From positions 214,047 to 278,046 of the forward strand of contig NZ_JAFFZE010000016.1 of NCBI RefSeq assembly GCF_025165815.1: a DNA stretch of 64,000 nt. Reading direction: 5' to 3'. Both the position numbers and the translations under genes were made by a program. Each line of letters opens with the position of its first letter. Position 1 is the stretch's first letter. Below are positions 5,387 through 32,997 of the stretch, piece after piece. The notes under the pieces were generated by a model. It was given only the letters and a program-made list of their open reading frames with translations, was not told the origin of the DNA and did not search any database. The DNA is from Actinophytocola gossypii. Lineage in GTDB: Bacteria; Actinomycetota; Actinomycetes; Mycobacteriales; Pseudonocardiaceae.

Positions 5387-5542
5387 CGGGGCCTCCTCCT
5401 GGGCTGGGCGTAGGTCGTTCCAGCGTGACCCGCGCGGCGTCCCAGCGGAGTCTCCCCGAGGTCCCACCGGGGCTGGGAAACCGTCCCGCCGGTCCGTCGA
5501 GTTAGCCTTGAGCACCGTTCGAGTGCCGCCCCGGAAGGTCCC

Positions 5543-6841: not shown

Positions 6842-6958
6842 CGGCACGCGGGCGACGCCGGGTCGGACACGGTTCCGATCCGGCGTTGCGCGGCTCTCGA
6901 GTCACCCTCCGTAGAACGAAAAGCGTTGAGTTCCAACGCGTCGAGGGTAGGTGTGAGC

Positions 6959-7444
6959 ATGTCCGACACCAAACCGTTCCTGTGCGGACCGCAGCAGGGT
7001 CGTGCCATCTGGCACTTCGGCTCGCTGGTCGTGTTCCGCGCGACCGGTGAGGACACCGACGGTCAGTACTGGTTGGCCGAGATGTCGTGCAACCGCGGCT
7101 ACGGTTCGCCGGTGCACGTGCACAGCCGCGAGGACGAGCTGTTCCACATCCTCGAGGGCGAGATGAGCATCGAGGTGGGCGGCCAGCTGTTCAACGCCAC
7201 CGCCGGCTCGTCGGTCTTCCTGCCGAGGAACATCCCGCACTCGTACAAGGCCGAGTCCGACACCGTGCGCACGCTGGTGCTGGGCACCCCGGCCGGCTAC
7301 GAGAACTGGTTCGTCGAGACCGGGACGCCGGCGGAGCGGCTGGAGATCCCGGCGTTCGACCCGTCCACCTTCCCCGACTTCGGCGACGTGATCGCCTCCA
7401 CGCAGAAGTACGGCGGCCAGGTGCTCGGCCCGCCGCGAGACTGA
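6959..7444 (+). CDS. cupin-domain protein
   Basis: Cupin_2-like core GSPVHVHSREDELFHILEGEMSIEVGG. Start set at the internal ATG (MSDTKPF). Confidence 0.7.
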   Translation: MSDTKPFLCGPQQGRAIWHFGSLVVFRATGEDTDGQYWLAEMSCNRGYGSPVHVHSREDELFHILEGEMSIEVGGQLFNATAGSSVFLPRNIPHSYKAESDTVRTLVLGTPAGYENWFVETGTPAERLEIPAFDPSTFPDFGDVIASTQKYGGQVLGPPRD

Positions 7445-8395: not shown

Positions 8396-9141
8396 GCGAG
8401 CAGCGGGTCCTGGTCGTCGGCGGGTACGGCGGGCTCGGTGCGGTGATCTGCGAGCAGTTCGCCGAGCAGGGCGCGGCGGTGGCGATCGCCGGGCGGTCGC
8501 CGGAGAAGGCGACCGAGCTGGCGGAGAAGCTGACCGCGAACGGGCACACCGCGCTGCCGCTCGCGCTCGACGTGGTCGACCCGGGAAGCATCGACGCCGC
8601 GGTGTCCGAAATGGACAAGGCGTGGGGCGGGATCGATGTGCTGGTGAACTCGGCCAGCAAGCTGGTCACGGTGCCGGCCGAGCACTTCGACCCGGACGAG
8701 TGGACCGAGGTCGTGCGGGCCAACCTGGTCGGCGCGTTCCTGCTGTCGCAACGGGTCGGCCGGCACATGCTGGAGCGCGGGAGCGGCCGGATCATCCACC
8801 TGTCGTCGGTCCGCGGCGACGCGGGCGGGCGGATGGGCTTCTCCGCGTACGGCGCGAGCAAGGCCGGGGTCAACCTGCTGGTCAAGCAGCTCGCCACCGA
8901 GTGGGGCGGGCGCGGGGTCACGGTGAACGCCGTGGCACCCGGGTTCATGCGGACCGACTTCGTGGAGGCCGCGCAGCAGAACCAGCAGTTCGTCGCCCGC
9001 CTGCGACAACGTATCCCGATCGGCCGCTTCGCCGAACCGGACGAGGTGGCGAGCGCGGTGACCTACCTCGCCTCGCCCCTGGCCCGTTTCGTCAACGGCC
9101 AGGTCATCTACGTCGACGGCGGCGTAACAGCCAGCCATTGA
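8392..9141 (+). CDS. SDR family short-chain dehydrogenase/reductase
   Basis: VVGGYGGLG Rossmann motif; YGASK catalytic Tyr-Lys. ATGA start/stop overlap with the upstream gene. Confidence 0.85.
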   Translation: MSEQRVLVVGGYGGLGAVICEQFAEQGAAVAIAGRSPEKATELAEKLTANGHTALPLALDVVDPGSIDAAVSEMDKAWGGIDVLVNSASKLVTVPAEHFDPDEWTEVVRANLVGAFLLSQRVGRHMLERGSGRIIHLSSVRGDAGGRMGFSAYGASKAGVNLLVKQLATEWGGRGVTVNAVAPGFMRTDFVEAAQQNQQFVARLRQRIPIGRFAEPDEVASAVTYLASPLARFVNGQVIYVDGGVTASH

Positions 9142-9170: not shown

Positions 9171-9551
9171 ATGTCCACCTGGCACGCGCTGCAGTACCCG
9201 ATCAAGCGGGGTAGCGAGGAGGCCGTCAAGGAGCTGTTCCGCAACAGCGGGCGGCCCACGTTCGAGATCACCGGGCCGGACGGCAAGGTCGTCGGGCGGC
9301 TGCTCGCCACCATGGCGTTCGTCGGTGAGGGCCTTGCGATCCGGGCGATCGAGGTCGACGGGCCGCTGCCGCTGGTGGCCGCGCACATGAGCCGCCAGCC
9401 GGAGGTCCGGGAGTTCGAGAAGCAGCTCGAGCAGCACCTGACCGAGCCGCGCGACATGGTCACCCCGGACGGCGCGCGGGCGTTCTTCCAGAAGGCCGGT
9501 ATGGAGAACGTGCTCAACCGGCGCGCTCCCGGGCACGAGGCGGCCGCCTGA
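9171..9551 (+). CDS. small protein, tentatively TcmI-like polyketide cyclase family
   Basis: 126 aa, in frame within track ORF 8622..9551, ATG preceded by GGAGG. Residue-pattern resemblance to TcmI (E.V..F....E......V.RR.L....L..IE.D......P.F.E...YLTP). Assignment from recollection only. Confidence 0.45.
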   Translation: MSTWHALQYPIKRGSEEAVKELFRNSGRPTFEITGPDGKVVGRLLATMAFVGEGLAIRAIEVDGPLPLVAAHMSRQPEVREFEKQLEQHLTEPRDMVTPDGARAFFQKAGMENVLNRRAPGHEAAA

Positions 9552-10408
9552 TGGAGATCGGGGTCGGCCTGCCGGGCGCGATCCGCGGCGCGACCGCGGA
9601 GAACGTGCTCGAGTGGGCCAGGGAGGCCGACCGGGCCGGGTTCTCCAGCCTGGCCACGCTCGACCGGCTGGTGTACGACAACTACGACAGCCTCACCACG
9701 CTCGCGGCCGCCGCGGCGGTCACCGAGCGGGCGCGGCTGACCACGTCGATCCTGATCTCGCCGCTGTACTCGAACACCGCGCTGCTCGCCAAGCAGGCGG
9801 CCACCATCGACCGGCTGTCCGGCGGCCGGCTGGTGCTCGGCGTCGCGGCCGGCTCCCGGCCGGACGACTTCCGCGCCAGCGGGGTCGAGCTGGGCGGGCG
9901 GGGCAAGCGGCTCGAGGCCCAGGTGGCCGAGCTGCGGGCGATCTGGTCGGGTGAGCGGCGCGGGTTCGCCGGCGGCATCGGGCCGTCGGTGACCGCGCCG
10001 CCGATCCTGATGGGCGGCCACTCCCCGGCCGCCCTGTCCCGTACCGCCCGCGTGGCGGACGGCTGGATCTCCGGCGGCGGCGGGGTGGACATGTTCGCCG
10101 GCGGCCTCGCCGCGCTCCGGGCGGCCTGGCAGGAGGCGGGCCGCGAGGGCAAGCCGCGGGTGGTGTCGCTGACGTACTTCGCGCTCGGTTCCCGGGCCGA
10201 GGAGCTGGCCGACCAGTACCTGTCCGACTACTACGGCTTCGCGCCGCCGTACGCGCAGCTCGTCCTCCGCAACGCCGCGGTCGGCGAGGCGAAGCTGACC
10301 GAGACCCTCGCCCGCCTGGAGCAACTCGGCTGCGACGAGGTCCTGCTCGCCCCGTGCGGCGCTGACCTCGACCAGCTGAAGGAACTCCGCGCGGTCACCG
10401 GCAAGTAG
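9551..10408 (+). CDS. LLM-class (luciferase-like) F420-dependent oxidoreductase
   Basis: Typical LLM F420 family sequence (GVGLPG, LATLDRLVYDNYDSLT, VADGWI). Start overlaps the upstream stop (TGATG). Confidence 0.8.
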   Translation: MEIGVGLPGAIRGATAENVLEWAREADRAGFSSLATLDRLVYDNYDSLTTLAAAAAVTERARLTTSILISPLYSNTALLAKQAATIDRLSGGRLVLGVAAGSRPDDFRASGVELGGRGKRLEAQVAELRAIWSGERRGFAGGIGPSVTAPPILMGGHSPAALSRTARVADGWISGGGGVDMFAGGLAALRAAWQEAGREGKPRVVSLTYFALGSRAEELADQYLSDYYGFAPPYAQLVLRNAAVGEAKLTETLARLEQLGCDEVLLAPCGADLDQLKELRAVTGK

Positions 10409-10464: not shown

Positions 10465-12120
10465 TCAGGCCGCCCGGCCCTCGGCTGCGGTGAGGATCTG
10501 CTGGCGCAGCGCCTTCTTGTCCACCTTGCCGACCGGGGTCAGCGGGAAGTCGGCCAGTAGTTCCAGTCGTTCGGGGATCTTGAACTTGGCCACCCCGCGT
10601 GCGGTGAACTCCTCGCGCACCTGGGTCAGGGTGAGCGCCGCGCCGGTGTGCGGGACGACGCAGACGCAGACCGACTCGCCGTACTCCGGGTCCGGCAGGG
10701 CGATCGCGGTGGCCCGGCGGACCTGCGGCAGCGCCTCGACGACCGCCTCGATCTCCGGAGCGGAGATCTTCTCCCCGCCCCGGTTGATCAGGTCCTTCAC
10801 CCGGCCCTCGACCACGAGGTTGCCGGTCTCGTCCCAGCGCACCAGGTCGCCGCTGCGGTACCAGCCGTCCTCGGTGAACGCCCTGGCGTTGTGCTCCGGC
10901 GCGCGGAAGTAGCCGCGCGGGGTGTACGGACCACGGGTGAGCAGCTCACCCGTGCCGCCGGGGGGCACCGGCCGCCCGTCCTCGTCGACGAGCAGCACCT
11001 CGTCCGCGTCGCTGATCGGCCGGCCCTGGGTACGCACGATCGCGTCCACCGGGTCGTCCGGGCGGGTGTAGTTCAGCAGCCCCTCGGCCATGCCGTACAC
11101 CTGCTGCAGGGTCGCGCCGAGCGCGGGGCCGATCCTGGCCGCGAACGCCGGGTCCAGCACCGAGCCGCCGACCTGCACCAACCGCAGGCTGGACAGGTCG
11201 TGCCCGCCGCCCGGCGCCGCCTCCACCCACCGGTACGCGATCGCGGGCACCAGCGAGGTCACCGTGGCGCGCTCCCGCTCGATCACCGGGAACGCGACCT
11301 CCGGCTTGGGCGAGCGGAGCATCACCACCCGTCCACCGTGGATCAGGGTGGCGAGGATGCCGGGCGACCCGAGCGGGAAGTTGTGCCCGACCGGCAGGGT
11401 CACCAGGTACACCGTGTCCGGGCCGAACCCGCACACCTCGCCGCTGCACCGGGCGTTGTACTCGTAGTCGTCGTGCGTCCTGGCGATGATCTTCGGCGTG
11501 CCGGTGGTGCCGCCGGAGAGCAGGAACAGCGCCACCGAGCCGGAGTCCGGCGCGGACGCGTCCAGTCTGGACCGCAGCCGGGCCGGGTCCTGCCACCGCT
11601 CCAGCAGCGAGCGCAGGTCCACCGCCGGGTCGTCGTGCCGCTCGCCGAGGACGAGCACCTCGCACCGCTGCGGCCGGGTGGCCGCCAGGTCGAGGGCCAT
11701 CCGCTGGTGGTCGAAGCCGTGCCACTGGTCCGGCACCACGATCGCCCGGACGTCGGCCAGGTCGGCGAGGTAGCGCAGCTCGTGCTCGCGGTGGGCGAGC
11801 AGGGCCAGCACCGGCGCCACCCCGATCCGCTGGCAGGCCAGGAACAGCGCGAGGAACTCCCAGGTGTTCGGCAGCTGCACGAGGATGTTGTCGCCGTCGT
11901 GCAGGCCAAGGTCGAGCAGGTGGTCGGCCAGCGCGTCGGCGTACTCGGCCAGCTGCCGGTAGGTGATCGACACCTCGCCGTCGACGACCGCCACCCGGTC
12001 GCCGTCCCGCTCGGCCCAGGTCCACATCCAGTGGCCGAGCGGCCGGCCCCGCCAGTAGCCCTCGGCGAGGTACTTCTCGGCCAGCTCCGCCGGCCAGGGG
12101 GTCACTCCGTCCCGATGCAT
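10465..12120 (-). CDS. aryl-acid adenylating enzyme (2,3-dihydroxybenzoate/salicylate-AMP ligase family; DhbE/EntE/NcsB2-like)
   Basis: ANL superfamily motifs (LSGGTTGTPK, GEL, GDLVRW, GRVKDLINRGGEKIS), with typical aryl-acid-ligase length (551 aa) and N-terminus. Confidence 0.85.
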   Translation of the reverse strand: MHRDGVTPWPAELAEKYLAEGYWRGRPLGHWMWTWAERDGDRVAVVDGEVSITYRQLAEYADALADHLLDLGLHDGDNILVQLPNTWEFLALFLACQRIGVAPVLALLAHREHELRYLADLADVRAIVVPDQWHGFDHQRMALDLAATRPQRCEVLVLGERHDDPAVDLRSLLERWQDPARLRSRLDASAPDSGSVALFLLSGGTTGTPKIIARTHDDYEYNARCSGEVCGFGPDTVYLVTLPVGHNFPLGSPGILATLIHGGRVVMLRSPKPEVAFPVIERERATVTSLVPAIAYRWVEAAPGGGHDLSSLRLVQVGGSVLDPAFAARIGPALGATLQQVYGMAEGLLNYTRPDDPVDAIVRTQGRPISDADEVLLVDEDGRPVPPGGTGELLTRGPYTPRGYFRAPEHNARAFTEDGWYRSGDLVRWDETGNLVVEGRVKDLINRGGEKISAPEIEAVVEALPQVRRATAIALPDPEYGESVCVCVVPHTGAALTLTQVREEFTARGVAKFKIPERLELLADFPLTPVGKVDKKALRQQILTAAEGRAA

Positions 12121-12135
12121 CCGAAAGGTCCTCCC

Positions 12136-15100
12136 TCAGGCCGCCACCGCGGGCGGCAGCGGCGTCTCCGGTTCGTCGTCGCCCGGCTCGGTCGCGCTGT
12201 CCGGCGTGAGCAGCTCGGCGAGGAAGTCGCCGATGGCCTGGACCGTCGGGCGGTTCCACAGCAGCGTCGCCGGCAGGCTGACCCGGAACGTCCGCTCCAG
12301 CCGGTTGCGGATGATCTGGGTCATCACCGAGTCGAGGCCCATCTCGATCAGCGGGCGGCGCACGTCGAGCTCGTCGGCGGCGAGCTTGATCTCGCCGGCC
12401 ACCTCGCCCGCGACCTCGCGCACCAGGTACTCGCGCAGGTCGTCGCCGCGCAGCTCCGCCCACGGCGCGGCGGTGCCACCCGGTGCGGCGGCCGGCTCCT
12501 CGGCGGTCAGCTCGCCGAGCAGCGCCGGCCGGGTCATGCCGGGCAGCAGCGGGATCGTGCGCAGCACGGCGACGTGCGCGACGTCGTGCCGGGCCGCGTA
12601 CTCCCAGGAGCGGAACGCCTCGGCAGCGGTGATGTCGGCAGTGCCCCGCGCGGACAGCTCAGCGTCGATGGCCGCCGACGAGGTCGACATGCCCAGGCCG
12701 CGCCAGGACGTCCAGCCGAGGCTGATCGTGTCGGTCCGGCCGCCCGCGCGGCGGTGCGTGGCGAGGCCGTCGAGCACCGCGTTGCCGGCCGCGTAGCTGG
12801 TCTGGCCGGGCAGGCCGAGCAGCAGACCGGCGGAGGAGAACAGGGCAAGGAAGTCCAGGCTCCCCGGCGGGAACAGCTCGTGCAGCACCAGCGCGCCGGC
12901 GACCTTGGGCCGCATCACCGTGACCAGCGACGCCTCGTCGACGTCGGCGGCCATCCGGTTGTCCAGCACACCGGCGGCGTGCACGACCCCGCGGATCGGC
13001 GGCAGACCCAGCTCGTTCGCGGACAGCAGCCGCGCGGCCTGCGCGCGGTCGGCGATGTCCAGCGCCACCACCCGCACGGTCACCCCGGCCGCTTCCAGCG
13101 CCCGCACCGCCTCGATCTGGCTCGCCAGGTTCGGGTCGGTGACGGTGTTCCACGACGACCGGGGCGGCAGCCCTCGGCGGCCGGCGAGCACCAGCCTGCG
13201 GGCGCCGCGGCCGGCGAGCCATTGCGCCACCTCCAGGCCGAGCACGCCGAGGCCACCGGTGATCAGGTAGGTGCCGTCCGGCCGGCAGGACACGCCCGGC
13301 CGGTCGGCGCCACCGTCCACCGGGGACAGCCGGGCGACCTCGATGTCGGTGCCCCGCACGGTGATCACGTCGTCGGCCGGGCGGGCGGCGAGCACCTGCC
13401 GGAGCATGCCGACCGAGCCGAGCGGGTCGGCGCCGTCCAGGTCGACGATGCCGCCCCACAGCCCGGGGTGCTCACCGCCGAGCACCCGCCCGACGCCCCA
13501 CAGCGCGGCGTCGCCGACACCGGCCAGCTCGGTGGCCTCCCGCACGCCGCGGGTCACGCACCACACCGCGGGCTGGGTGTCCCAGGTGGACAGCCGCTGC
13601 ACGGTCCTGGTGAGCAGCCAGGTCGCGGCGAGCGAGGAGTCCCAGGCGTCCTCGGTGCGTCGCGGCAGGACCACGACCGCGGTGGCCGCGGTGACCTCCG
13701 CTCCGTCCAGTTCGGACGGTTCGGTGACCGCCCGACACGGCACGCCGGCCTCGGCGAACGAGGCGCCCAGCTCGCCGCCGAACCCGGTGTCGCCGACGAA
13801 CACGACCTGGTCCAGCTCGTGGGTCCGCTTCGGCAGCTCCAGGGCACGCCAGACGACCTCGTGGACCAGCCGCCGCGGGCTCGCCGGGGCGCCGATGTCG
13901 CCGTCCAGCACGCCGTAGCGCAGGCCGGTGAGGCTGGCGACCACGGAGCCGTCCGGCGCGGCGACCCGCACGTCGACGGTGTCGGTCGAGCCGGGCTGCA
14001 CCCGCACGCTGAGCACCGCCTCCTCCGGCGGGCGGCCGCCGACGACCACCTGCCGGATGTGCGCCGGCATCCGCAGCGTGGCCGGCCCGTCGAACACCAC
14101 CGACGCGGCGGACAGCGCGGCGTCCAGGATCGACGCCCAGGTACGCGGCAACGTGCCGTTCGGGTCGGCGACGACCCGGACGAACAGCTCGCCCGGCCCG
14201 CGCCGGATCCGGTTGATCCGCCACGGGAAGCCCATCGCGGCCACGCCGATCGAGGCGAGCCGGTCCACCACGTAGTCGGGGTCGAGCCGCTCAACGCACC
14301 GGTTGCGCAGCTCCTCCAGCGCGAGCGTGCCGCCCCCGCCGAGGTCGGCCACCGCCGGCACCACCGCGGTGGTGTGCGTCTGCCAGCCGCTGTCCTGCTC
14401 GGCGGCCTCGCCGGGCAACCGGGACGCCAGCCGCAGCGAGCCGTCCATGTGCACGACCTGCAGCTCGCGGGGCGCGGCGACGGACACCGGGACGCGCAGC
14501 GACACGTCGGTCAGCACGTGCCCGCCGGACGCGGCGAGGAACGTGTTCAGCAGCACCGCGGCCGGAATGATCTCGGTGCCCTGCACCGGGTGGTCGCCGG
14601 GGTAGGGCCGGCTGCCGTGGTCCAGCCTGGTCTGCCACAACCGCACGGTCGAGGTCCCGTTCACGGTGAGCGGCGAGCCGAGCAGGGTGTGGCTGTCCTC
14701 GTCGTGCAGTCGCGTGTGGACACCGGCGGCGGGCACCTCGACCCGGAACTCCCGGTGCTGCCAGGCGATCCCCGGCAGCGGCGCCAGCCGCCCGCCGGGG
14801 AACGCGGCCGACCAGTCGACCGGGACGCCGGTGCAGTGCAGGGTGCCGAGGTTGTCCACCAGCGTGGTGCGCTCCGGCCGGTTGCGCCGCAGCGTGTGCG
14901 CGACCACGGCGTCGCCGATCCCCTCGGCGGCGAGCACCTCGTTGATCGAGTACGACACCACCGGGTGCGGGGACACCTCGACGAACGCCCGGTACCCGTC
15001 GGCGAGCGCGGCGCCGACCGCGCCGGCGAACCGGACCGGGTTGCGCAGGTTGCCCGCCCAGTACGAGCCGTCCCGGGGCGCGTCGTCGCGCGGGTCGACC

Positions 15101-17412
15101 AGCGACGTCGAGTACACCGGCAGCGCGGGCTCGCGGACGGTCAGGTCGTGCGCGGCCTCGGCCAGCTCGCCGACCAGGGGGTCCATGTGGTGGCTGTGGA
15201 ACGCGACGTCGGAGTTGACCCGCTGGACGTGCAGCTCCGGGTCGGCGGTCCACTGCTTGACCACCACGTCCAGCACCGCGGTGTCGCCGGCGATCACGGT
15301 CGAGCTCGGCGCCGCGGAGATCGCGGCGACCACGCCGTCGTGCCCGGTCAGGCGGCGCTGTGCCTCCTCGAACGGCAGGTTGACCATGGCCATGCCGCCG
15401 TTGCCGGCGACCCGACGCAGCAGCGCCGAGCGGCGGCAGATGAGCCGGGCGCCGTCGGCGAGGTCGAGGATCCCGGCGACGACCGCGGCCGCGATCTCAC
15501 CGACCGAGTGCCCGATCACCGCGGCCGGCCGGATGCCGTGCTCGTACCAGACCTCGGCCAGCGCCACCTGCATCGCGAAGATCATCATCTGGATGACGTC
15601 GGTGTGCAGCAGGTCGCCCTCGAGCAGCGCGCGGCGCGGCGAGATCCCGGCCTCGTCGAGGAAGACCGGCTCCAGCTCGTCGAGCACCCGCCCGAACGCC
15701 GGCTCGGTGGCCAGCAGCTCCCGGCCCATGCCGATCCACTGCGAGCCGTGCCCGGAGAACACCCACACCGGGCCCTTCGCGGCGCCCTCGAGCGGCTGGC
15801 CCGAGGTGATCCCGTCACCCGGCTCGTCCACCCCCACCTGCCGCAGGCGTGCGATCAGCTCGTCCTGCCCGGTCGCGGTGATCGCGGTGCGGTACGCGAG
15901 GTGGCTGCGCCGGCGGGTGAGCGTGTAGGCAACATCGGCCAGCTCGGCGTCCGCGGCCCGCAGCCCGTCGCCGCCGAGCCACTGCGCCAGCCGGACCGCG
16001 TACTCGCGCACGGCCTCCGGCGAGTTCCCGGACAGCGGGTAGACGCGCTGCGCGGTGCCCTTGTCCAGCGCGGTGACCGGCTGGTCGAGCCGGGGCGCCT
16101 GCTCCAGCACGAGGTGCGCGATCGTGCCGCCGTAGCCGTAGCCGGACACCCCGGCCCGGCGCGCGCCCGCGGTGCTCGGCCACGGGGTGACCTCGGTGAC
16201 CACCCGCAGGCCGGTCTCGGGCCAGGGGATGTCCGGGTTCGGCGTGTCGAAGTTGAGGCTCGGCGGGATGGCCGCGTGCTCGATCGCGAGCACCGCCTTG
16301 ATCACCCCGGCGATTCCGGACGCGGCCTCGAGGTGCCCGATGTTGGTCTTGACCGAGCCGATCAGGCACGGCCGGTCCACCGGACGGCCCGCGCCGTAGA
16401 CCGCGGCCAGCGCGGCGGCCTCGATCGGGTCGCCGGCCCGGGTGCCGGTGCCGTGCGCCTCCACGTAGTCGACCGACTCGGGGGCGACCCCGGCGCGCAC
16501 GCAGGCCTCGCGCAGCATCTCGGTCTGCGCCTCGCCGCTCGGGGCCATGATCCCGTTCGTCCGGCCGTCCTGGTTCACCGCGCTGCCCCGGATGACCGCG
16601 AGCACCCGGTCGCCGTCCCGGCGGGCGTCGGAGAGTCGTTTGAGGACGACGATCCCGCAGCCCTCGCCCCGGCCGTACCCGTTGGCGGAGGCGTCGAAGG
16701 ACTTGGAGCGGCCGTCCGGGGCGAGCGCGCCGGCGGTGTCCATCACCATCGTGAGGCCCGGGGCGACCATCAGCATGATCCCGCCGGCGATCGCCACCGG
16801 GGTCTCGCCCTGGCGCAGGCTCTGGCAGGCCAGGTGCAGCGCCACCAGGGAGGACGAGCACGCGGTGTCCACGACCATGCTCGGCCCGTGCAGGTCGAGC
16901 ACGTAGGACACCCGGTTGGCGACCGCGCACATGGACGACCCGATGCCGGTCCAGGCCTCGATCCTGGGCAGGTCCTCGAGGAGCTTGCGGCCGTGGTCGT
17001 CGGTGTTGACGCCGACGAACACACCGGCGTTGGTGCCGGCGAGGTCGCCCGGCACGATCCCGGCGTGCTCCAGGGCCTCCCAGGTGACCTCCAGGGTCAT
17101 CCGCTGCTGCGGGTCCATCAGGGTGGCCTCGCGCGGGGACACCCCGAAGAAGGCGGCGTCGAACTCGTCCACGTTGGACACGAAGCCGCCCTGTTTGGAC
17201 ACCTTCCGCACCGCGGCCGCGTTCTCCGGCGCGGCCTCGTAGTGTTCCCACCGGTCCGGTGGTACCTCGCCGATCGCGTCGAAGCCGTCCACGAGCGCGT
17301 TCCAGAACGCCTCGGGTGAGTTGATGTCGCCGGGCAGCCGACAGCCCATACCGACGATCGCCACCGGCTCCGGAGCGTCGGGCTGTCGGTCGGCTTCGTT
17401 CGAAGTCACCAT
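12136..17412 (-). CDS. iterative type I polyketide synthase, KS-AT-DH-KR-ACP, no TE (6-MSAS / naphthoate-synthase architecture)
   Basis: KS active site DTACSSSL plus HGTGT. AT GHSVGE. DH HPVQGTEIIP. KR Rossmann GTYLITGGLGVLG. ACP GLDSV. Start set at the internal ATG (MVTSNEADR), which is preceded by GGAGGA; about 1758 aa. Confidence 0.9.
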   Translation of the reverse strand: MVTSNEADRQPDAPEPVAIVGMGCRLPGDINSPEAFWNALVDGFDAIGEVPPDRWEHYEAAPENAAAVRKVSKQGGFVSNVDEFDAAFFGVSPREATLMDPQQRMTLEVTWEALEHAGIVPGDLAGTNAGVFVGVNTDDHGRKLLEDLPRIEAWTGIGSSMCAVANRVSYVLDLHGPSMVVDTACSSSLVALHLACQSLRQGETPVAIAGGIMLMVAPGLTMVMDTAGALAPDGRSKSFDASANGYGRGEGCGIVVLKRLSDARRDGDRVLAVIRGSAVNQDGRTNGIMAPSGEAQTEMLREACVRAGVAPESVDYVEAHGTGTRAGDPIEAAALAAVYGAGRPVDRPCLIGSVKTNIGHLEAASGIAGVIKAVLAIEHAAIPPSLNFDTPNPDIPWPETGLRVVTEVTPWPSTAGARRAGVSGYGYGGTIAHLVLEQAPRLDQPVTALDKGTAQRVYPLSGNSPEAVREYAVRLAQWLGGDGLRAADAELADVAYTLTRRRSHLAYRTAITATGQDELIARLRQVGVDEPGDGITSGQPLEGAAKGPVWVFSGHGSQWIGMGRELLATEPAFGRVLDELEPVFLDEAGISPRRALLEGDLLHTDVIQMMIFAMQVALAEVWYEHGIRPAAVIGHSVGEIAAAVVAGILDLADGARLICRRSALLRRVAGNGGMAMVNLPFEEAQRRLTGHDGVVAAISAAPSSTVIAGDTAVLDVVVKQWTADPELHVQRVNSDVAFHSHHMDPLVGELAEAAHDLTVREPALPVYSTSLVDPRDDAPRDGSYWAGNLRNPVRFAGAVGAALADGYRAFVEVSPHPVVSYSINEVLAAEGIGDAVVAHTLRRNRPERTTLVDNLGTLHCTGVPVDWSAAFPGGRLAPLPGIAWQHREFRVEVPAAGVHTRLHDEDSHTLLGSPLTVNGTSTVRLWQTRLDHGSRPYPGDHPVQGTEIIPAAVLLNTFLAASGGHVLTDVSLRVPVSVAAPRELQVVHMDGSLRLASRLPGEAAEQDSGWQTHTTAVVPAVADLGGGGTLALEELRNRCVERLDPDYVVDRLASIGVAAMGFPWRINRIRRGPGELFVRVVADPNGTLPRTWASILDAALSAASVVFDGPATLRMPAHIRQVVVGGRPPEEAVLSVRVQPGSTDTVDVRVAAPDGSVVASLTGLRYGVLDGDIGAPASPRRLVHEVVWRALELPKRTHELDQVVFVGDTGFGGELGASFAEAGVPCRAVTEPSELDGAEVTAATAVVVLPRRTEDAWDSSLAATWLLTRTVQRLSTWDTQPAVWCVTRGVREATELAGVGDAALWGVGRVLGGEHPGLWGGIVDLDGADPLGSVGMLRQVLAARPADDVITVRGTDIEVARLSPVDGGADRPGVSCRPDGTYLITGGLGVLGLEVAQWLAGRGARRLVLAGRRGLPPRSSWNTVTDPNLASQIEAVRALEAAGVTVRVVALDIADRAQAARLLSANELGLPPIRGVVHAAGVLDNRMAADVDEASLVTVMRPKVAGALVLHELFPPGSLDFLALFSSAGLLLGLPGQTSYAAGNAVLDGLATHRRAGGRTDTISLGWTSWRGLGMSTSSAAIDAELSARGTADITAAEAFRSWEYAARHDVAHVAVLRTIPLLPGMTRPALLGELTAEEPAAAPGGTAAPWAELRGDDLREYLVREVAGEVAGEIKLAADELDVRRPLIEMGLDSVMTQIIRNRLERTFRVSLPATLLWNRPTVQAIGDFLAELLTPDSATEPGDDEPETPLPPAVAA

Positions 17413-17539: not shown

Positions 17540-18217
17540 CTAACGCTCGCGCGCTCTCGCCGGGAGCAGGAAGCCGACCGCGACCAGCCAGAGCAGCGCG
17601 GCGAACCGGCCGACGGGAATGAGCGTCGTCGCCGGCTCGGTGACGAAGGTGAGGCTGGACGCCAACGACAGCCCGGCGATCACCAGACCGGCGGCGGACA
17701 GCCAGCCGGGCAGCAGCGCGGCCCGCCGGGCGACCAGGCTGACCGCGCCCACGAGCAGCGCGCCGGCGGCGACGTGCGCGAACCCGCCGAGACCGAAGTA
17801 CAGGTAGTGCATGGCCCGCCGGACGGCCGGCTCCTCGGTCACGCCCGGGTGCGCGAGGACCCACTGCACCAGGCCGTTCAGCGCGAGGAACGCCGCCGCG
17901 ACCAGGCCACCGGCGGCGGCGACCGCCGTGTGCGCGGGGAGCCCCGGCGCGAGCGAGCGCAGCCGGACGACCAGCGTCGCGGTGAGCACGGCGAGGGCGA
18001 GCCCGGTGCCGAACTGGAGGAAGCCCACCCAGGACACCAGCGTCGGGTGCCCGGCGTAGAACGCGGCGATGCCGGCGTCGTCGCCGAACGGGTTGGTGTA
18101 GACCGCGCCGGCGAACACCAGGCCGGCGAGCAGGCTCACGACGAACAGGCCCGCGGTGACCAGTGCCGGGACGGCGACCGACGCACCGCTGGTGGAACGG
18201 GAAACCGTTGTGGTCAT
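17540..18217 (-). CDS. integral membrane protein (DUF4386-like), 6 predicted TM helices
   Basis: Hydrophobic ORF. Start set at the internal ATG (MTTTVSRS). Confidence 0.55.
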   Translation of the reverse strand: MTTTVSRSTSGASVAVPALVTAGLFVVSLLAGLVFAGAVYTNPFGDDAGIAAFYAGHPTLVSWVGFLQFGTGLALAVLTATLVVRLRSLAPGLPAHTAVAAAGGLVAAAFLALNGLVQWVLAHPGVTEEPAVRRAMHYLYFGLGGFAHVAAGALLVGAVSLVARRAALLPGWLSAAGLVIAGLSLASSLTFVTEPATTLIPVGRFAALLWLVAVGFLLPARARER

Positions 18218-18308
18218 TGACAAATCGTAGAATCGGGATCGATCGGGCACGAGGGTTCCCGGCCCGCCGTCGAGTGGGTCTCGAGACGACCGGGCCTATG
18301 GTCGGGGC

Positions 18309-18698
18309 ATGACTGTTTCCGACACCATCGAGCGGTTCGCCGCCGCCGAGCGCGTTGGCGACGCGGAGGCGCTGGACGTCCTGCTGGCCGCCGACTTCCA
18401 GGGCGTCGGCCCGCTCGGGTTCGTACTCACCAAGGACCAGTGGATCGACCGCTACCGGTCGGGCGCGCTCGTGCCCAAGGCGTTCGAGCTGCGGGACACG
18501 CAGGTGCGCGAGTACGGCGACACCGCGCTGGTGCTGGCCGTGCAGCGGCAGGAGGGCAGCTACCACGGCCACGCGGCCGACGGCGAGTTCCGGGCCACGA
18601 TCGTGCTGACCCGGCGCGACGGGAGCTGGCTGATCGCGCACTGCCACCTGTCCGGGCCGCTCGGGCCGCCGCCGGGACGTCCCCCGCGGGCTCAGTAG
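18309..18698 (+). CDS. SnoaL-like / NTF2-fold protein (DUF4440-like)
   Basis: 129 aa, NTF2-like pattern (FAAAERVGDAEALDVLLAADF ... SWLIAHCHLS). Confidence 0.65.
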   Translation: MTVSDTIERFAAAERVGDAEALDVLLAADFQGVGPLGFVLTKDQWIDRYRSGALVPKAFELRDTQVREYGDTALVLAVQRQEGSYHGHAADGEFRATIVLTRRDGSWLIAHCHLSGPLGPPPGRPPRAQ

Positions 18699-19327
18699 GC
18701 GATCTCCACGGTGGACCGGAAGGTCGACGCGTCGCCGACGTGGGCGAGCAGGTGGTGCGCCACGTCGGCGCGGGAGATCGACCAGCAGCCGCGCAGCTTC
18801 CCGTTCCGCGCGGTGCGGTAGCGACCGGTGACCGGGCCGTTGGTGAGCCGGGCGGCCCGCACCAGGGTCCAGTCGACGTCGCTGGCTCGGACCCGCCGCT
18901 CCATCTCGGCCATGTCCGCGTACGGCTTGGCCAGGATCCGGTGCAGCAGGAACCGCGCCAGGAACCACTCCGCGACGTGCTTCGGCGGCGGGATCTCCAG
19001 CGACGACGTGGACACCACGAGCAGCCGCCGGGTGCCCTCGGCGCGCATCGCGTCGAGGATGTTGCCGGTGCCCTGCGAGTAGACCGTTGTGGCGTGCCGG
19101 TGCATGCCGATGCCGAGCGCGGAGACCACCGCCTCCGAGCCGGCGACCACCCGGCCGACCGCGTCCGGATCGAGCACGTCCCCGCCCACGACCGTGATCC
19201 GGTCGCCGAACTCCGCCAGCGCGCCGGGATCCCTGGCCAGCGCGGTCACCTTGTCGCCGGCCTCCAGGGCCTGCGCGATCGCCGCGCGCCCGGTCCCGCC
19301 GGTCGCACCGAACACCGCCAGCCGCAT
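18692..19327 (-). CDS. NAD(P)H-binding protein (NmrA/atypical SDR, BVR-B-like reductase)
   Basis: N-terminal MRLAVFGATGGTGRA Rossmann motif; 211 aa. Confidence 0.75.
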   Translation of the reverse strand: MRLAVFGATGGTGRAAIAQALEAGDKVTALARDPGALAEFGDRITVVGGDVLDPDAVGRVVAGSEAVVSALGIGMHRHATTVYSQGTGNILDAMRAEGTRRLLVVSTSSLEIPPPKHVAEWFLARFLLHRILAKPYADMAEMERRVRASDVDWTLVRAARLTNGPVTGRYRTARNGKLRGCWSISRADVAHHLLAHVGDASTFRSTVEIAY

Positions 19328-19408: not shown

Positions 19409-20842
19409 TCAGGCGGCCTGCTGGCCCGCGGTGGCCGCCCGGACGGCGGCGACCAGGTCCGCGCGGCTCGCGCCGGGCAGCTGCGGCGGGGGACCGCCGG
19501 CCAGCGCCCTGCCGACCCGTTCCTTGATCTCGTCGTTGGCGTACAGCTCGGCCGGGGACACCAGCGACATCATCACCTGGGCGACCCGGCGCCAGATCTC
19601 GGCGTCCTTCGTGGACGCTCCGACCACCGCGCCGAAGGTGAGCACGCCGGGCGGCGGCGCCTGCGGGCGCTCGCCGGCGATCGTGGCCGCCCACAGCCCG
19701 CCACGGCCGCGGTCGTTGGCGATCGACTCGCCGAGCCACGGCGCGAGCAGCGCCTTGCTGGCCCCGGCGAACCGCGCGGCCTGCGCGCGGTCCACGGTCG
19801 GGTGCTCGGCGAGCAGGTCGACCAGCTCGAACACGTGCGCCAGCGCCAGCGACACGCCCCGCCCGTACGCCGGGTTGGTCGTGCACACCGAGTCGCCGAG
19901 GCCGTAGAAGCCGACCGGCAGGTCACCGGCCGGATCCGCCAGCCGCGAGCTGTTGTCCAGCCCGCCCATCGCGTACACCGGCGAGGTCGGCTCGGAGTTG
20001 CCCGGCGCGACCCAACCCGCGAGCAGCGGGGTGGCCCGGATCGCCGCGGTGAACGCCTCCTCGGTGCGCAACGCCTTCATCTCCTTGTCGTCCGGCAGCA
20101 CGCCGAGCGAGATGGAGAAGGTGTCGTTGTCCCCGAGGAACAGCACCGCGGTGTAGCTGTCCCACAGCCCGCCCGCGCCGAACCCGCGGTTCAGCGGGCC
20201 GGGCGGCGCCGGGGTGAGCCGGCGGTAGTAGCGGGTGTAGTACGTGATCCGGCAGCTCTCGCTGGTCTGCTCCGGCACCGGCAGACCGGCCGCGTCCAGC
20301 CACTGCGGCGCGGCGGTCTTCCGGCCGCTGGTGTCCAGCACCAGGTCGGCGGTCAGCTCGGTGCCGTCGGCCAGCCGCACGCCGCGGACCGGGCCGCCGT
20401 CGGTGAGCAGGCCGCGGACCGTGGCGCCGGTACGCACCGACACCCCGGGCCGGGACAGCGCCCGCTCCCGCAGCACGAACTCGAACACCGAGCGCCGCGC
20501 GGTGATCATGTTCAGCTCGTCGTCCTCGGGCTTGCGCTCGAAGTCGCCGAGCGTCGGCGGCGGGTAGTCGGCCAGGTTGAGCGTGCCCGCGCCGGCCGCG
20601 AGCAACGCCTCGTACACGTCCGGGAGCCGGTCGCGCAGCAGGTTGGTGCCGCGCGAGCCGAAGGCGTGCGAGTGCGCCGCCTGCGGCACGGTCGGCCGGG
20701 CCCAGCCGTCCGCCGCGTCGTCCAGTGTGGACGGCGGGGCGGCGGATTCTCGTTCGACCAGCAGCACCTCGTGACCGGCGTCGGCCAGCGCGGCCGCGGC
20801 GGCCAGGCCGGTGACGCTCGCTCCGACAGCGATGATCCTCAT
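19409..20842 (-). CDS. FAD-dependent oxidoreductase / monooxygenase
   Basis: Start set at the internal ATG giving MRIIAVGASVTGLAAAAALADAGHEVLLVERE (dinucleotide-binding GxGxxG). The track ORF N-terminal extension is Arg-rich non-coding read-through. Confidence 0.75.
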   Translation of the reverse strand: MRIIAVGASVTGLAAAAALADAGHEVLLVERESAAPPSTLDDAADGWARPTVPQAAHSHAFGSRGTNLLRDRLPDVYEALLAAGAGTLNLADYPPPTLGDFERKPEDDELNMITARRSVFEFVLRERALSRPGVSVRTGATVRGLLTDGGPVRGVRLADGTELTADLVLDTSGRKTAAPQWLDAAGLPVPEQTSESCRITYYTRYYRRLTPAPPGPLNRGFGAGGLWDSYTAVLFLGDNDTFSISLGVLPDDKEMKALRTEEAFTAAIRATPLLAGWVAPGNSEPTSPVYAMGGLDNSSRLADPAGDLPVGFYGLGDSVCTTNPAYGRGVSLALAHVFELVDLLAEHPTVDRAQAARFAGASKALLAPWLGESIANDRGRGGLWAATIAGERPQAPPPGVLTFGAVVGASTKDAEIWRRVAQVMMSLVSPAELYANDEIKERVGRALAGGPPPQLPGASRADLVAAVRAATAGQQAA

Positions 20843-22285: not shown

Positions 22286-22309
22286 CTCTTTCCTCTCCCT
22301 CAAGTGCTG

Positions 22310-32984: not shown

Positions 32985-32997
32985 AGTGGACCTTTCG

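What the first reader, a model, noticed from the sequence alone, without database searches (positions are those of the whole stretch)
10465..17412. Single iterative type I PKS (KS-AT-DH-KR-ACP, no TE) paired with an aryl-AMP ligase: aromatic-acid cassette of 6-methylsalicylate/naphthoate type
The ~1758-aa PKS has the domain order and size of bacterial iterative type I aromatic PKSs (ChlB1/MdpB 6-MSAS; NcsB/AziB naphthoate synthases) as recalled. It lacks a loading module or thioesterase. The gene immediately downstream is a DhbE/NcsB2-like aryl-acid adenylating enzyme, the usual partner that activates the released aromatic acid for ester or amide attachment. Nearby are an ACMSD-type amidohydrolase (PatG-like 6-MSA decarboxylases belong to this fold), two SnoaL-like proteins, an FAD monooxygenase and TylB/TylM1-type dimethylamino-sugar genes. 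Together these imply a glycosylated natural product carrying a (methyl)salicyl or naphthoyl unit. The cluster is cut by the window edge, so the core scaffold genes may lie upstream.
Basis: partly seen in the sequence, partly recalled or inferred. Interest (0 to 1): 0.6.

Follow-up and report, generated by a model that had tools for sequence, protein, structure and literature searches.

The report
6-Methylsalicylate-type PKS and CoA ligase pair
Two adjacent genes in an Actinophytocola genome encode a single-module iterative polyketide synthase and an aryl-acid ligase that match the characterised 6-methylsalicylate pair PokM1/PokM3, and they sit in an uncharacterised sugar-decorating antibiotic-type gene cluster, which makes this a correct but fairly ordinary finding.

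Summary
On the minus strand, 12136-17412 encodes a 1758-aa KS-AT-DH-KR-ACP synthase with no loading module and no thioesterase. A 551-aa DhbE/CahJ-type adenylate-forming ligase (10465-12120) starts 15 bp downstream.

The PKS is 58% identical to PokM1 and 60% to the S. gandocaensis 6-MSAS. The ligase is 58% identical to PokM3, a characterised 6-MSA:CoA ligase that occupies the same position after PokM1. The most likely function is 6-methylsalicylate synthesis followed by CoA activation. A naphthoate product could not be excluded because no NcsB/AziB reference sequences were obtainable.

The pair lies in a ~40-kb orphan cluster conserved across Actinophytocola. It contains PDH-E1-like alpha/beta, a MonCI-like flavin epoxidase, SnoaL-like proteins, an F420 oxidoreductase, SchA/CurD, an SDR, an ACMSD-family amidohydrolase, a quercetinase-like cupin and three MFS pumps. 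In relatives, the sugar genes at the window's left edge continue into a ketoisomerase, a GT1 glycosyltransferase and NDP-sugar genes. A glycosylated product is therefore plausible.

In the two closest relatives no further scaffold genes follow. One more distant relative has a type II PKS there. No KASIII-type acyltransferase and no free carrier protein is present.

Verdict: a new member of a known kind, of moderate-to-low interest.

The parts
12136..17412 (-). Iterative type I PKS, 1758 aa, KS-AT-DH(TH)-KR-ACP, no loader, no TE; predicted 6-methylsalicylate synthase
   Evidence: Pfam domains. Translation and motifs. 95% identical to an Actinophytocola MAG protein, 60% to S. gandocaensis 6-MSAS, 58% to PokM1.
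16246..17370 (-). KS domain (active-site Cys in DTACSS; His in HGTGT and NIGH)
   Evidence: Pfam PF00109/PF02801; motifs.
14824..15768 (-). AT domain (GHSVG; VAFH at the malonyl-specificity position)
   Evidence: Pfam PF00698; motifs.
13912..14691 (-). DH-like domain (HPVQGTEIIP). In 6-MSAS-type enzymes this domain is thought to act in dehydration and product release.
   Evidence: Pfam PF21089/PF14765; motif. The release role comes from my knowledge of fungal 6-MSAS and was not tested.
12700..13275 (-). KR domain (GLGVLG Rossmann motif, LDN, YAAGN)
   Evidence: Pfam PF08659 E 5e-55; motifs.
12220..12417 (-). ACP domain (GLDS). This is the only phosphopantetheine-attachment motif in window 1-26000.
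   Evidence: Pfam PF00550; motif scan.
10465..12120 (-). Aryl-acid adenylate-forming ligase, 551 aa; predicted 6-methylsalicylate:CoA ligase (PokM3 orthologue)
   Evidence: Pfam. NCBIfam DHB_AMP_lig 585 bits, below the 723 cutoff. PDB best hit is CahJ 5wm2, E 2e-169. 58.4% identical to PokM3 over 539 aa.
9551..10408 (+). Luciferase-like, probably F420-dependent oxidoreductase
   Evidence: Pfam Bac_luciferase; NCBIfam TIGR03619 family. Conserved in all Actinophytocola loci.
9171..9551 (+). SchA/CurD-like protein (126 aa)
   Evidence: ORF. Pfam SchA_CurD on the L001 orthologue. PDB hit to the WhiE ORFI-type protein 9lmn, E 1e-14.
8392..9141 (+). Short-chain dehydrogenase/reductase
   Evidence: Pfam adh_short_C2 E 6e-62.
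7460..8395 (+). Amidohydro_2 (ACMSD/LigW superfamily) protein; candidate non-oxidative aryl-acid decarboxylase or hydratase
   Evidence: Pfam E 1e-33. PDB best hits are ACMSD and LigW at E 1e-11 to 1e-9.
6926..7444 (+). Cupin, quercetin 2,3-dioxygenase-like
   Evidence: Pfam Cupin_2. PDB YxaG/QueD E 8e-20.
2365..6841 (.). Three MFS transporters (2365-3798 -, 3791-5515 -, 5543-6841 +)
   Evidence: Pfam MFS_1. Syntenic in L001, L056 and L059.
1805..2359 (-). NUDIX hydrolase lying between the pumps and the sugar genes
   Evidence: ORF translation. 100% identical to an A. gossypii protein. Same position in L056, L057 and L059.
1054..1788 (-). Sugar N,N-dimethyltransferase (TylM1/DesVI family)
   Evidence: Pfam. 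Homologues are named dTDP-3-amino-3,6-dideoxyglucose N,N-dimethyltransferase.
3..1046 (+). DegT/DnrJ/EryC1 sugar aminotransferase, 5' end cut by the window edge
   Evidence: Pfam E 3e-115. 87% identical to the A. xanthii orthologue, which is followed by FdtA and GT1.
17540..18250 (-). Polytopic membrane protein with no family match, directly upstream of the PKS; present in 8 of 13 related loci
   Evidence: Translation. No Pfam or NCBIfam hit. Presence/absence table.
18309..18698 (+). SnoaL_3/DUF4440 NTF2-fold protein
   Evidence: Pfam.
18692..19327 (-). NmrA-like NAD(P)H-binding protein
   Evidence: Pfam NAD_binding_10 E 7e-43.
19409..20842 (-). Flavin monooxygenase related to the polyether epoxidases MonCI and Lsd18
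   Evidence: Pfam (weak). PDB MonCI/Lsd18 E 6e-20.
20848..21249 (-). SnoaL-like NTF2-fold protein
   Evidence: Pfam SnoaL_2/SnoaL. PDB 1tuh, IdmH and NgnD.
21254..23281 (-). PDH-E1-like ThDP enzyme: alpha (22310-23281) and beta (21254-22303) subunits, with no E2 or E3
   Evidence: Pfam E1_dh and Transket_pyr/Transketolase_C. NCBIfam PDH E1 alpha/beta, just below cutoffs. PDB human PDH E1 alpha E 5e-50.
23411..24565 (+). Cys/Met-metabolism PLP enzyme, divergent from E1 alpha; the last gene of the conserved block
   Evidence: Pfam E 1e-122. Synteny breaks beyond it in several loci.

Best explanation
The 1758-aa protein is a bacterial partially reducing iterative type I PKS of the 6-methylsalicylic acid synthase family. 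It would build a tetraketide from one acetyl and three malonyl units on its single KS-AT-DH-KR-ACP module, reduce one keto group, aromatise the chain and release 6-methylsalicylate without a thioesterase.

The co-transcribed 551-aa ligase then adenylates the free acid and, like its orthologue PokM3, most probably converts it to 6-methylsalicylyl-CoA.

The pair is a portable cassette found in many actinomycete genera. Here it sits in a ~40-kb orphan cluster conserved in Actinophytocola. The CoA-activated or free acid would be oxidatively tailored by a flavin epoxidase/monooxygenase, cupin dioxygenase, ACMSD-type amidohydrolase, SDR, F420 oxidoreductase and NTF2-fold proteins. A single GT1 would join it to a dimethylamino sugar. 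The PDH-E1-like pair may add a two-carbon branch to that sugar. Three MFS pumps would export the product.

Shown: gene structure, domain order, intact motifs, orthology to PokM1/PokM3, synteny. Inferred: the product (6-MSA), CoA thioester formation, the order and roles of tailoring steps, glycosylation.
For: - Domain order and intact catalytic motifs.
- PKS 58% identical to PokM1 and 60% to the S. gandocaensis MSAS, which are themselves 60% identical to each other.
- The ligase is 58.4% identical to PokM3 over 539 aa and has the same length. The gene order PKS then ligase matches the polyketomycin cluster.
- PokM3 is a characterised ATP-dependent 6-MSA CoA ligase, used functionally in E. coli (PMC7247197 and PMC12519201).
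- The best solved relative is CahJ (E 2e-169), which accepts salicylate and 6-MSA.
- Pocket residues are N-F-S/S/V-L, against CahJ N-F-C/S/V-L and DhbE N-Y-S/A/V-V. They are as bulky as or bulkier than in monocyclic-acid enzymes and invariant in 14 distinct Actinophytocola orthologues.
- A natural PKS-ligase fusion protein exists.
- The pair recurs in Streptomyces, Amycolatopsis, Sphaerimonospora, Salinactinospora and Rhizohabitans.
- Sugar and GT genes are contiguous with the cluster in A. xanthii, L056, L057 and L006. NDP-sugar dehydrogenase plus an SDR sit next to the pair in Amycolatopsis and Rhizohabitans.
- There is precedent for PDH-E1-like pairs branching keto-sugars (PMC4425429, PMC10338323).
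Against: - No reference sequences of the naphthoate synthases (NcsB, AziB) could be obtained, so phylogenetic discrimination of chain length was not done. 58-60% identity to 6-MSAS anchors is typical of the whole family.
- The S. gandocaensis enzyme is assigned by bioinformatics and feeding only.
- The window has no PokM2/ChlB3-type KASIII acyltransferase, no C-methyltransferase, and no other recognisable acyl-CoA-using transferase. The fate of the CoA ester is therefore unexplained.
- Ser replaces the Cys typical of salicylate-specific enzymes at pocket position 240.
- An ACMSD-type decarboxylase and a carboxylate-activating ligase would compete for the same carboxyl group.
- The GT and NDP-sugar genes are inferred from relatives, not seen in the window.
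- One relative (L006) lacks the E1/epoxidase arm entirely, so that arm may be a separate module.
Confidence: 0.65

Rival explanations
1. The PKS is a naphthoate synthase of the NcsB/AziB type (penta- or hexaketide). The ligase is an NcsB2-like naphthoate:CoA ligase.
For: The architecture (KS-AT-DH-KR-ACP, about 1750 aa) and the pairing with a ligase are identical in both types. No reference sequences were available to exclude this.
Against: - The named relatives among the top hits are 6-MSAS-type (PokM1, cahMSAS). None of the 120 best hits carries a naphthoate-synthase name.
- The ligase is orthologous to the 6-MSA ligase PokM3 and has a CahJ-like pocket with bulky residues (S308, V329, L337) that leave little room for a second ring.
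- There is no NcsB1-type O-methyltransferase, no NcsB3-type P450, and no enediyne or azinomycin genes in the window or flanks.
Confidence: 0.1
2. The cassette supplies an acyl decoration or starter unit for a larger aromatic scaffold made by a type II PKS just beyond the left window edge. This would follow polyketomycin logic: a dimethylsalicylyl ester on a sugar of a tetracyclic quinone.
For: - In MAG contig_71 (L011 and L057) the NUDIX-MT-AT-FdtA block lies next to KS-alpha/KS-beta/ACP/cyclase genes, about 30 kb from the iPKS.
- PokM1/PokM3 sit inside a type II PKS cluster.
- SchA/CurD, SnoaL, cupin, NmrA and LLM proteins are typical type II PKS tailoring families.
Against: - In the two relatives closest to the window at this edge, A. 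xanthii (MT 88%, AT 87%) and L056 (85%), the sugar block is followed by GT1, an NDP-sugar dehydrogenase and an SDR, then unrelated genes. No type II PKS lies within about 9-10 kb.
- L057 has a different gene order (GT between the MFS and NUDIX genes).
- There is no KASIII-like transferase in the window.
Confidence: 0.15
3. The ligase is a DhbE/EntE/CahJ-type stand-alone NRPS adenylation enzyme. It would load the aryl acid onto an aryl carrier protein of a siderophore-like or other NRPS line encoded elsewhere, as 6-MSA is used for cahuitamycin C.
For: The strongest solved-structure matches are CahJ, DhbE, PchD and EntE. NCBIfam's best model is DHB-AMP ligase. The cahuitamycin case shows an unlinked 6-MSAS feeding an NRPS.
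Against: - The score is below the DHB_AMP_lig cutoff (585 vs 723).
- There is no aryl carrier protein, condensation domain or isochorismate-pathway gene in the window. The only PP-attachment motif in 1-26000 is the PKS ACP.
- The co-located orthologue PokM3 is a CoA ligase.
- The ligase always travels with the PKS, not with NRPS genes.
Confidence: 0.07
4. The ligase acts upstream of the PKS. It would load an aromatic acid starter onto the PKS ACP, and the PKS would extend it rather than make 6-MSA de novo.
For: A natural PKS-ligase fusion places the ligase next to the ACP. No other acceptor for the activated acid is evident.
Against: - No salicylate or benzoate-forming genes lie in the cluster.
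- The gene order is PKS then ligase, and in the fusion the ligase is C-terminal, not N-terminal as loading domains are.
- The orthologue PokM3 acts on the PKS product.
Confidence: 0.03

Closest known systems
PokM1/PokM3 of the polyketomycin cluster (Streptomyces diastatochromogenes Tu6028): 6-MSA synthase plus 6-MSA:CoA ligase
   Same: - Same domain order and size (1739-1742 vs 1758 aa).
- The ligase is 551 aa in both.
- Same gene order, with the ligase directly after the PKS.
- Both proteins are 58% identical to their window counterparts.
- Both sit in clusters with sugar aminotransferase, GT1 and NDP-sugar genes.
   Different: - The pok cassette also has the KASIII-like transferase PokM2 and the C-methyltransferase PokMT1, and is embedded in a type II PKS cluster. 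The window has no homologue of either and no type II PKS.
- Pocket residues differ: PokM3 N-Y-S and V-I, window N-F-S and V-L.
- The tailoring set here (E1 alpha/beta, MonCI-like epoxidase, cupin, Amidohydro_2, SchA/CurD, LLM) is absent from the pok region shown.
CahJ and the unlinked 6-MSAS of cahuitamycin biosynthesis (Streptomyces gandocaensis)
   Same: The PKS is 60% identical to the cah MSAS. The ligase's best solved relative is CahJ (E 2e-169), with five of six pocket positions identical. CahJ accepts 6-MSA.
   Different: CahJ loads an NRPS carrier domain and is encoded with NRPS genes, unlinked to the PKS. Here the ligase is fused to the PKS operon and no carrier protein or NRPS is present. 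Position 240 is Ser here and Cys in CahJ.
Other bacterial aromatic iterative type I PKS cassettes: ChlB1 (chlorothricin), MdpB/MdpB2 (maduropeptin), NcsB/NcsB2 (neocarzinostatin), AziB (azinomycin), AviM (avilamycin)
   Same: A single iterative module makes an aromatic acid that is then activated and attached to a larger glycosylated molecule (general knowledge, plus for MdpB1/MdpB2-type CoA-tethered chemistry). Avilamycin and everninomicin also combine an iPKS with a PDH-E1-like pair and UDP-glucuronate-derived pentoses.
   Different: - AviM-type enzymes lack the KR that is present here.
- There are no enediyne, spirotetronate, azabicycle or orthosomycin genes here.
AviB1/AviB2, Pau11/Pau12, EvdU5/EvdS3: PDH-E1-like pairs that add a two-carbon branch to 4-keto sugars
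   Same: An E1 alpha/beta pair without E2 or E3 sits inside a secondary-metabolite cluster. That cluster, in relatives, also has an NDP-sugar dehydrogenase, a decarboxylase/dehydratase-like SDR and a GT.
   Different: Here the pair is co-transcribed with a SnoaL-like protein, an epoxidase and an NmrA-like protein, about 20 kb from the sugar genes. It is missing from one otherwise similar locus (L006). No direct sequence comparison with AviB1/AviB2 was possible.

Membership tests
Bacterial iterative type I PKS, 6-methylsalicylic acid synthase type (PokM1/ChlB1/MdpB) | Single module KS-AT-DH(TH)-KR-ACP of about 1700-1800 aa, with no loading module and no TE | tested here: met
   Pfam domain order and boundaries; N- and C-terminal tails of about 14 and 27 aa.
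Bacterial iterative type I PKS, 6-methylsalicylic acid synthase type (PokM1/ChlB1/MdpB) | Intact catalytic residues in every domain, including the KR (which separates it from the KR-less orsellinate synthases) | tested here: met
   DTACSS, HGTGT, NIGH, GHSVG, HPVQGTEIIP, GLGVLG, YAAGN and GLDS all present.
Bacterial iterative type I PKS, 6-methylsalicylic acid synthase type (PokM1/ChlB1/MdpB) | Full-length homology to an experimentally anchored 6-MSAS | tested here: met
   58% to PokM1 (ACN64831.1, in the P0068 cluster) and 60% to the S. gandocaensis MSAS over at least 96% of the length. These two anchors are 60% identical to each other.
Bacterial iterative type I PKS, 6-methylsalicylic acid synthase type (PokM1/ChlB1/MdpB) | Phylogenetic separation from naphthoate synthases (NcsB/AziB) | not testable with these tools
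   No NcsB or AziB sequence could be retrieved. Literature searches gave no usable identities or motifs.
Bacterial iterative type I PKS, 6-methylsalicylic acid synthase type (PokM1/ChlB1/MdpB) | Product is 6-methylsalicylic acid | not testable with these tools
   Requires expression and LC-MS.
PokM3/MdpB2-type aryl acid:CoA ligase | ANL-superfamily two-domain enzyme encoded next to the iterative PKS | tested here: met
   AMP-binding plus AMP-binding_C. 15-bp gap after the PKS gene. The same arrangement is seen in L060 (pok), in 14 distinct Actinophytocola loci and in 8 loci of other genera.
PokM3/MdpB2-type aryl acid:CoA ligase | Orthology to the characterised 6-MSA CoA ligase PokM3 | tested here: met
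   58.4% identity over 539 of 551 aa, equal to the PKS/PokM1 divergence. PokM3 function is taken from PMC7247197 and PMC12519201.
PokM3/MdpB2-type aryl acid:CoA ligase | Forms a CoA thioester, not only the adenylate | not testable with these tools
   Needs an enzyme assay.
DhbE/EntE/CahJ stand-alone NRPS aryl-acid adenylation enzymes | Scores above the curated family threshold for (2,3-dihydroxybenzoyl)adenylate synthase | tested here: not met
   TIGR02275 584.7 bits vs cutoff 723.55; NF008192 556.4 vs 783.
DhbE/EntE/CahJ stand-alone NRPS aryl-acid adenylation enzymes | Partner aryl carrier protein and NRPS condensation machinery in the cluster | tested here: not met
   No PP-binding protein other than the PKS ACP in 1-26000. 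No NRPS domains in any window gene scanned.
Polyketomycin/chlorothricin-type aroyl-sugar decoration cassette | KASIII-like acyltransferase (PokM2, ChlB3/ChlB6) that transfers the aroyl group | tested here: not met
   tblastn of PokM2 against the window found no hit at E 1e-3. No ACP_syn_III domain in any gene.
Polyketomycin/chlorothricin-type aroyl-sugar decoration cassette | A separate scaffold synthase (type II PKS or modular PKS) in the same cluster | tested here: inconclusive
   None in the window, or within about 10 kb past the edge in A. xanthii and L056. A type II PKS is present in L057. The source contig itself could not be read.
Benzoxazole pathway (NatL2/NatAM, nataxazole type) | PaaK-type ester-forming ligase plus a ~494-aa two-domain zinc amidohydrolase, and 3-hydroxyanthranilate genes | tested here: not met
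   The ligase is DhbE/CahJ-type. The amidohydrolase is 311 aa and of the ACMSD family (Amidohydro_2). There are no ADIC or isochorismatase genes.

The most novel reading that the evidence does not exclude
The iterative PKS is the only scaffold-forming enzyme of a self-contained, genus-wide Actinophytocola cluster. Its CoA-activated 6-methylsalicylate is not a decoration but the aglycone precursor. It would be remodelled while CoA-tethered by a MonCI-like epoxidase, a quercetinase-like dioxygenase and an ACMSD-type enzyme. It would then be glycosylated with a dimethylamino sugar, possibly a pentose and possibly carrying a two-carbon branch added by the PDH-E1-like pair. That would be a structurally new family of small aminoglycosylated aromatic polyketides.
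Probability: 0.25. Interest if true: 0.5.

Novelty: new member of a known kind. Interest (0 to 1): 0.3.

Why it matters
The PKS-ligase pair itself adds nothing conceptually new. It is a further copy of a well-studied cassette, and its function can be predicted by orthology to PokM1/PokM3.

Its value is practical. It marks an uncharacterised ~40-kb cluster that is conserved across a little-explored genus (Actinophytocola). The cluster has an unusual tailoring set and an aminosugar module, so it is a reasonable target for natural-product discovery. The comparison also shows that the same cassette travels between genera with different tailoring and sugar genes. That is useful for genome-mining rules: iPKS plus a 551-aa ligase indicates a CoA-activated methylsalicylate unit.

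Tried and rejected
1. I first concluded that the sugar genes are not part of the conserved cluster, because the methyltransferase and aminotransferase were absent from all related loci and L001 seemed to have a NUDIX gene instead. This was an artefact. The window has the same NUDIX gene, and the 10-kb flanks simply stop before the sugar genes. Walking out from methyltransferase and NUDIX homologues reversed the conclusion.

2. The benzoxazole (nataxazole) pathway was rejected. It combines a 6-MSAS, ligases and an amidohydrolase, but NatL2 is PaaK-type and NatAM is a 494-aa two-domain enzyme.

3. An NRPS aryl-capping role was rejected for lack of any carrier protein or NRPS gene.

4. A polyether-like reading of the MonCI-like epoxidase plus NTF2-fold neighbour was dropped. 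There is no modular PKS, and the SnoaL-like protein does not hit Lsd19/MonB-type hydrolases.

5. Attempts to obtain NcsB/AziB/ChlB1 reference sequences or published identity values failed.

6. Exact look-ups of the window's own methyltransferase and of the identical A. gossypii NUDIX protein found no retrievable contig, so the true left flank could not be read.

7. PADLOC found nothing for the large ATPase/SPFH genes to the right of the cluster.


Full report
**Observation**

The window is high-GC (about 72%) actinomycete DNA. Third-position GC singles out two adjacent minus-strand genes that fill the reported interval exactly: 12136-17412 and 10465-12120.

The first gene encodes 1758 aa from the ATG at 17412. 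An in-frame GTG at 17490 would add 26 residues, but the 95%-identical homologue P0001 is also 1758 aa. Pfam finds KS, KS C-terminal domain, KS-AT linker, AT, PKS-type DH, KR and PP-binding, in that order, with E-values from 1e-89 to 1e-10. About 14 residues precede the KS and about 27 follow the ACP, so there is no loading module and no thioesterase. All catalytic motifs are intact: DTACSS, HGTGT, NIGH, GHSVG, HPVQGTEIIP, GLGVLG, YAAGN and GLDS.

The second gene starts 15 bp after the PKS stop and encodes a 551-aa AMP-binding/AMP-binding_C enzyme.

**Source organism**

The closest PKS homologues are from Actinophytocola, at 95%, 87% and then 73-82% identity. The window's NUDIX protein is 100% identical to one from Actinophytocola gossypii, family Pseudonocardiaceae. 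The source contig itself could not be retrieved.

**What the two genes are**

- Of the 120 best PKS homologues, 114 are single-module proteins of about 1700-1840 aa, and many are annotated 6-methylsalicylic acid synthase. The remaining six are five partial (about 50% coverage) matches to multimodular synthases of 2900-3100 aa and one 2368-aa PKS-ligase fusion.
- Two hits give named anchors. P0033 is the S. gandocaensis 6-MSAS, proposed to feed cahuitamycin C (60% identity). The 90% cluster of P0068 contains PokM1 of S. diastatochromogenes, the polyketomycin 6-MSAS (58% identity). These two anchors are 60% identical to each other, so the window protein is as close to each as they are to one another.
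- The ligase's best solved relative is 5wm2, 'Salicylate-AMP ligase' (E 2e-169), which from my own knowledge is CahJ. DhbE, PchD and EntE follow.
- It scores below NCBIfam's DHB-AMP ligase cutoff (585 vs 723 bits).
- In DhbE numbering the pocket reads N235, F236, S240, S308, V329, L337. CahJ reads N-F-C-S-V-L and DhbE reads N-Y-S-A-V-V. This signature is invariant in 14 distinct Actinophytocola orthologues.
- In the polyketomycin producer, the gene directly after PokM1 is a 551-aa AMP ligase (PokM3) that is 58.4% identical to the window ligase over 539 residues. PokM3 is described as an ATP-dependent 6-MSA CoA ligase and has been used in E. coli to make 6-MSA-CoA.
- Both partners show the same divergence and the same gene order, so the window pair looks like a co-inherited orthologue of PokM1/PokM3.
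- One metagenomic protein (P0052, 2368 aa) is a head-to-tail fusion of the two. This is Rosetta-stone support for functional coupling, but it rests on a single record.

**The cassette is portable**

tblastn of the window proteins against 54 related genomic loci shows two patterns.

- In 14 distinct Actinophytocola-type loci (L001 and L008 are the same MAG contig) almost the whole block from the cupin to the Cys/Met-PLP gene is conserved.
- In Streptomyces, Salinactinospora, Amycolatopsis, Sphaerimonospora, Dactylosporangium and Rhizohabitans only the PKS-ligase pair recurs (53-62% identity). There it sits with other tailoring genes: an O-methyltransferase, a FAD_binding_3 monooxygenase, an alpha/beta-hydrolase, GT1 and MFS.

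**The surrounding cluster**

The genes are tightly packed, with no gap over 140 bp.

- To the right of the PKS, on the same strand, lies an apparent operon: PDH-E1-like alpha and beta subunits without E2 or E3, a SnoaL-like protein, a flavin enzyme whose nearest solved relatives are the polyether epoxidases MonCI and Lsd18 (E 6e-20), and an NmrA-like protein.
- A SnoaL_3 gene and a membrane protein of unknown family lie between that operon and the PKS.
- To the left lie an F420-type luciferase-like oxidoreductase, a SchA/CurD protein (related to WhiE ORFI), an SDR, an Amidohydro_2 protein only distantly related to the ACMSD/LigW decarboxylases (E 1e-11), a quercetinase-like cupin (E 8e-20), three MFS pumps, a NUDIX hydrolase, a TylM1-family N,N-dimethyltransferase and a truncated DegT aminotransferase.
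- The right-hand boundary is at the Cys/Met-PLP gene, because synteny breaks beyond it. Genes past 24.7 kb are unrelated.

**Are the sugar genes part of the cluster?**

My first answer was no. That was an artefact of the 10-kb flanks (see 'tried and rejected'). Walking out from methyltransferase and NUDIX homologues gave four findings.

- In A. xanthii (methyltransferase 88%, aminotransferase 87% identical to the window) and in a metagenomic contig (L056, 85%), the same gene order continues: NUDIX, MT, AT, FdtA-type ketoisomerase, GT1, NDP-sugar dehydrogenase, and a 4,6-dehydratase/UDP-glucuronate-decarboxylase-like SDR. Unrelated genes follow.
- L006 lacks the E1/epoxidase arm but still has an NDP-sugar dehydrogenase and two DegT aminotransferases beside the PKS core.
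- The dehydrogenase and SDR (67-73% identical) also flank the pair in Amycolatopsis and Rhizohabitans.
- In a more distant MAG (methyltransferase 62%) the sugar block abuts a type II PKS.

The cluster is therefore cut by the window edge, and a glycosylated product is well supported. In the closest relatives, however, what lies beyond the edge is a sugar/GT module rather than a second scaffold synthase.

**Mechanism**

- Shown: gene structure, domains, motifs, orthology and synteny.
- Inferred: the PKS makes 6-methylsalicylate. The ligase adenylates it and forms the CoA thioester. [quoted passage not shown] GT1 attaches a dimethylamino sugar.
- The PDH-E1-like pair has a documented role elsewhere. 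AviB1/AviB2, Pau11/Pau12 and the proposed EvdU5/EvdS3 add a pyruvate-derived two-carbon branch to 4-keto sugars. UDP-glucuronate decarboxylases supply a 4-keto-pentose. That is the best available guess here. It is weakened because the pair is co-transcribed with the epoxidase 20 kb from the sugar genes and is absent from L006.

**Unexplained points**

- There is no KASIII-type or other recognisable acyltransferase and no free carrier protein, so the acceptor of the activated acid is unknown.
- An ACMSD-type enzyme and a carboxylate-activating ligase would compete for the same carboxyl group.

**Rivals**

- A naphthoate synthase remains possible because no NcsB/AziB sequences were available. 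The named relatives, the PokM3 orthology, the compact ligase pocket and the absence of partner O-methyltransferase or P450 genes all argue against it.
- A hidden type II PKS scaffold is possible but is not seen in the closest relatives.
- An NRPS hand-off is disfavoured by the lack of any carrier protein.
- A benzoxazole route is excluded by enzyme type.

**Verdict**

This is a new member of a known kind: a PokM1/PokM3-type methylsalicylate cassette inside an orphan, genus-conserved, probably glycoside-forming cluster. Interest is moderate to low for mechanism and somewhat higher as a natural-product discovery lead.

Noticed in passing
window 17540-18250 (-): A roughly 225-236-aa polytopic membrane protein with no Pfam or NCBIfam match sits directly upstream of the PKS on the same strand. 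Homologues (47-78% identity) occur at the same place in 8 of 13 Actinophytocola-type loci. It is missing from the 95%-identical relative.
   Followed up: partly
P0052 (JGI metagenome protein, 2368 aa): A natural head-to-tail fusion of the PKS (residues 1-1816, 58% identity) and the ligase (1817-2368, 69% identity). It is a single record, so it could be a lost stop codon or a gene-calling artefact.
   Followed up: partly
L057 14831-19636 (ENA contig_71, same contig as L011): In this MAG a complete minimal type II PKS (KS-alpha, KS-beta, ACP, ARO/CYC, TcmI-like cyclase, ABM) lies directly beside the NUDIX-MT-AT-FdtA sugar block, about 30 kb from the iterative PKS. This suggests a hybrid or neighbouring aromatic polyketide cluster in that genome only.
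   Followed up: partly
L015, L016, L017, L023, L027 (Amycolatopsis, Sphaerimonospora, Rhizohabitans): A second, widespread orphan cluster type is built on the same PKS-ligase cassette. It combines a ~580-aa FAD_binding_3 monooxygenase, an alpha/beta-hydrolase directly after the ligase, an O-methyltransferase, GT1, MFS, an NDP-sugar dehydrogenase and an SDR. The ligase pocket there reads N-F-N / V-V, not N-F-S / V-L.
   Followed up: partly
between ligase and LLM genes: L059 901-1476, L056 236-1285, L004 and L005 equivalents: The short spacer between the ligase and the luciferase-like gene is an insertion hot spot. It holds a TIR_2-domain gene in A. xanthii, a 349-aa Stv-like gene in L056 and one to three extra genes in L004, L005 and L009. 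The window has nothing there.
   Followed up: no
window 12136-17412 (-), AT domain residue ~736: The AT specificity motif reads VAFH rather than the canonical malonyl-type HAFH. The KR has LDN where B-type KRs have LDD. The significance of both is unknown.
   Followed up: no
window 26113-33699 (-): An apparent operon encodes a 1635-aa DUF3686/DUF7902/AAA+ ATPase, a 655-aa SPFH (Band 7) protein and a 233-aa protein with a weak match to a membrane-protein family. It gives no match in PADLOC, and its function is unknown.
   Followed up: partly
window 40178-44840 (-): A 929-aa protein with only a partial Hsp70 ATPase domain overlaps a 684-aa FAD_binding_4/cytokinin-dehydrogenase-like protein. This is an unusual pairing and was not examined further.
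   Followed up: no
window 1805-2359 (-): A NUDIX hydrolase is conserved between the MFS pumps and the sugar N-methyltransferase in every relative that has the sugar block (L056, L057, L059). This suggests a role with nucleotide sugars rather than housekeeping.
   Followed up: partly
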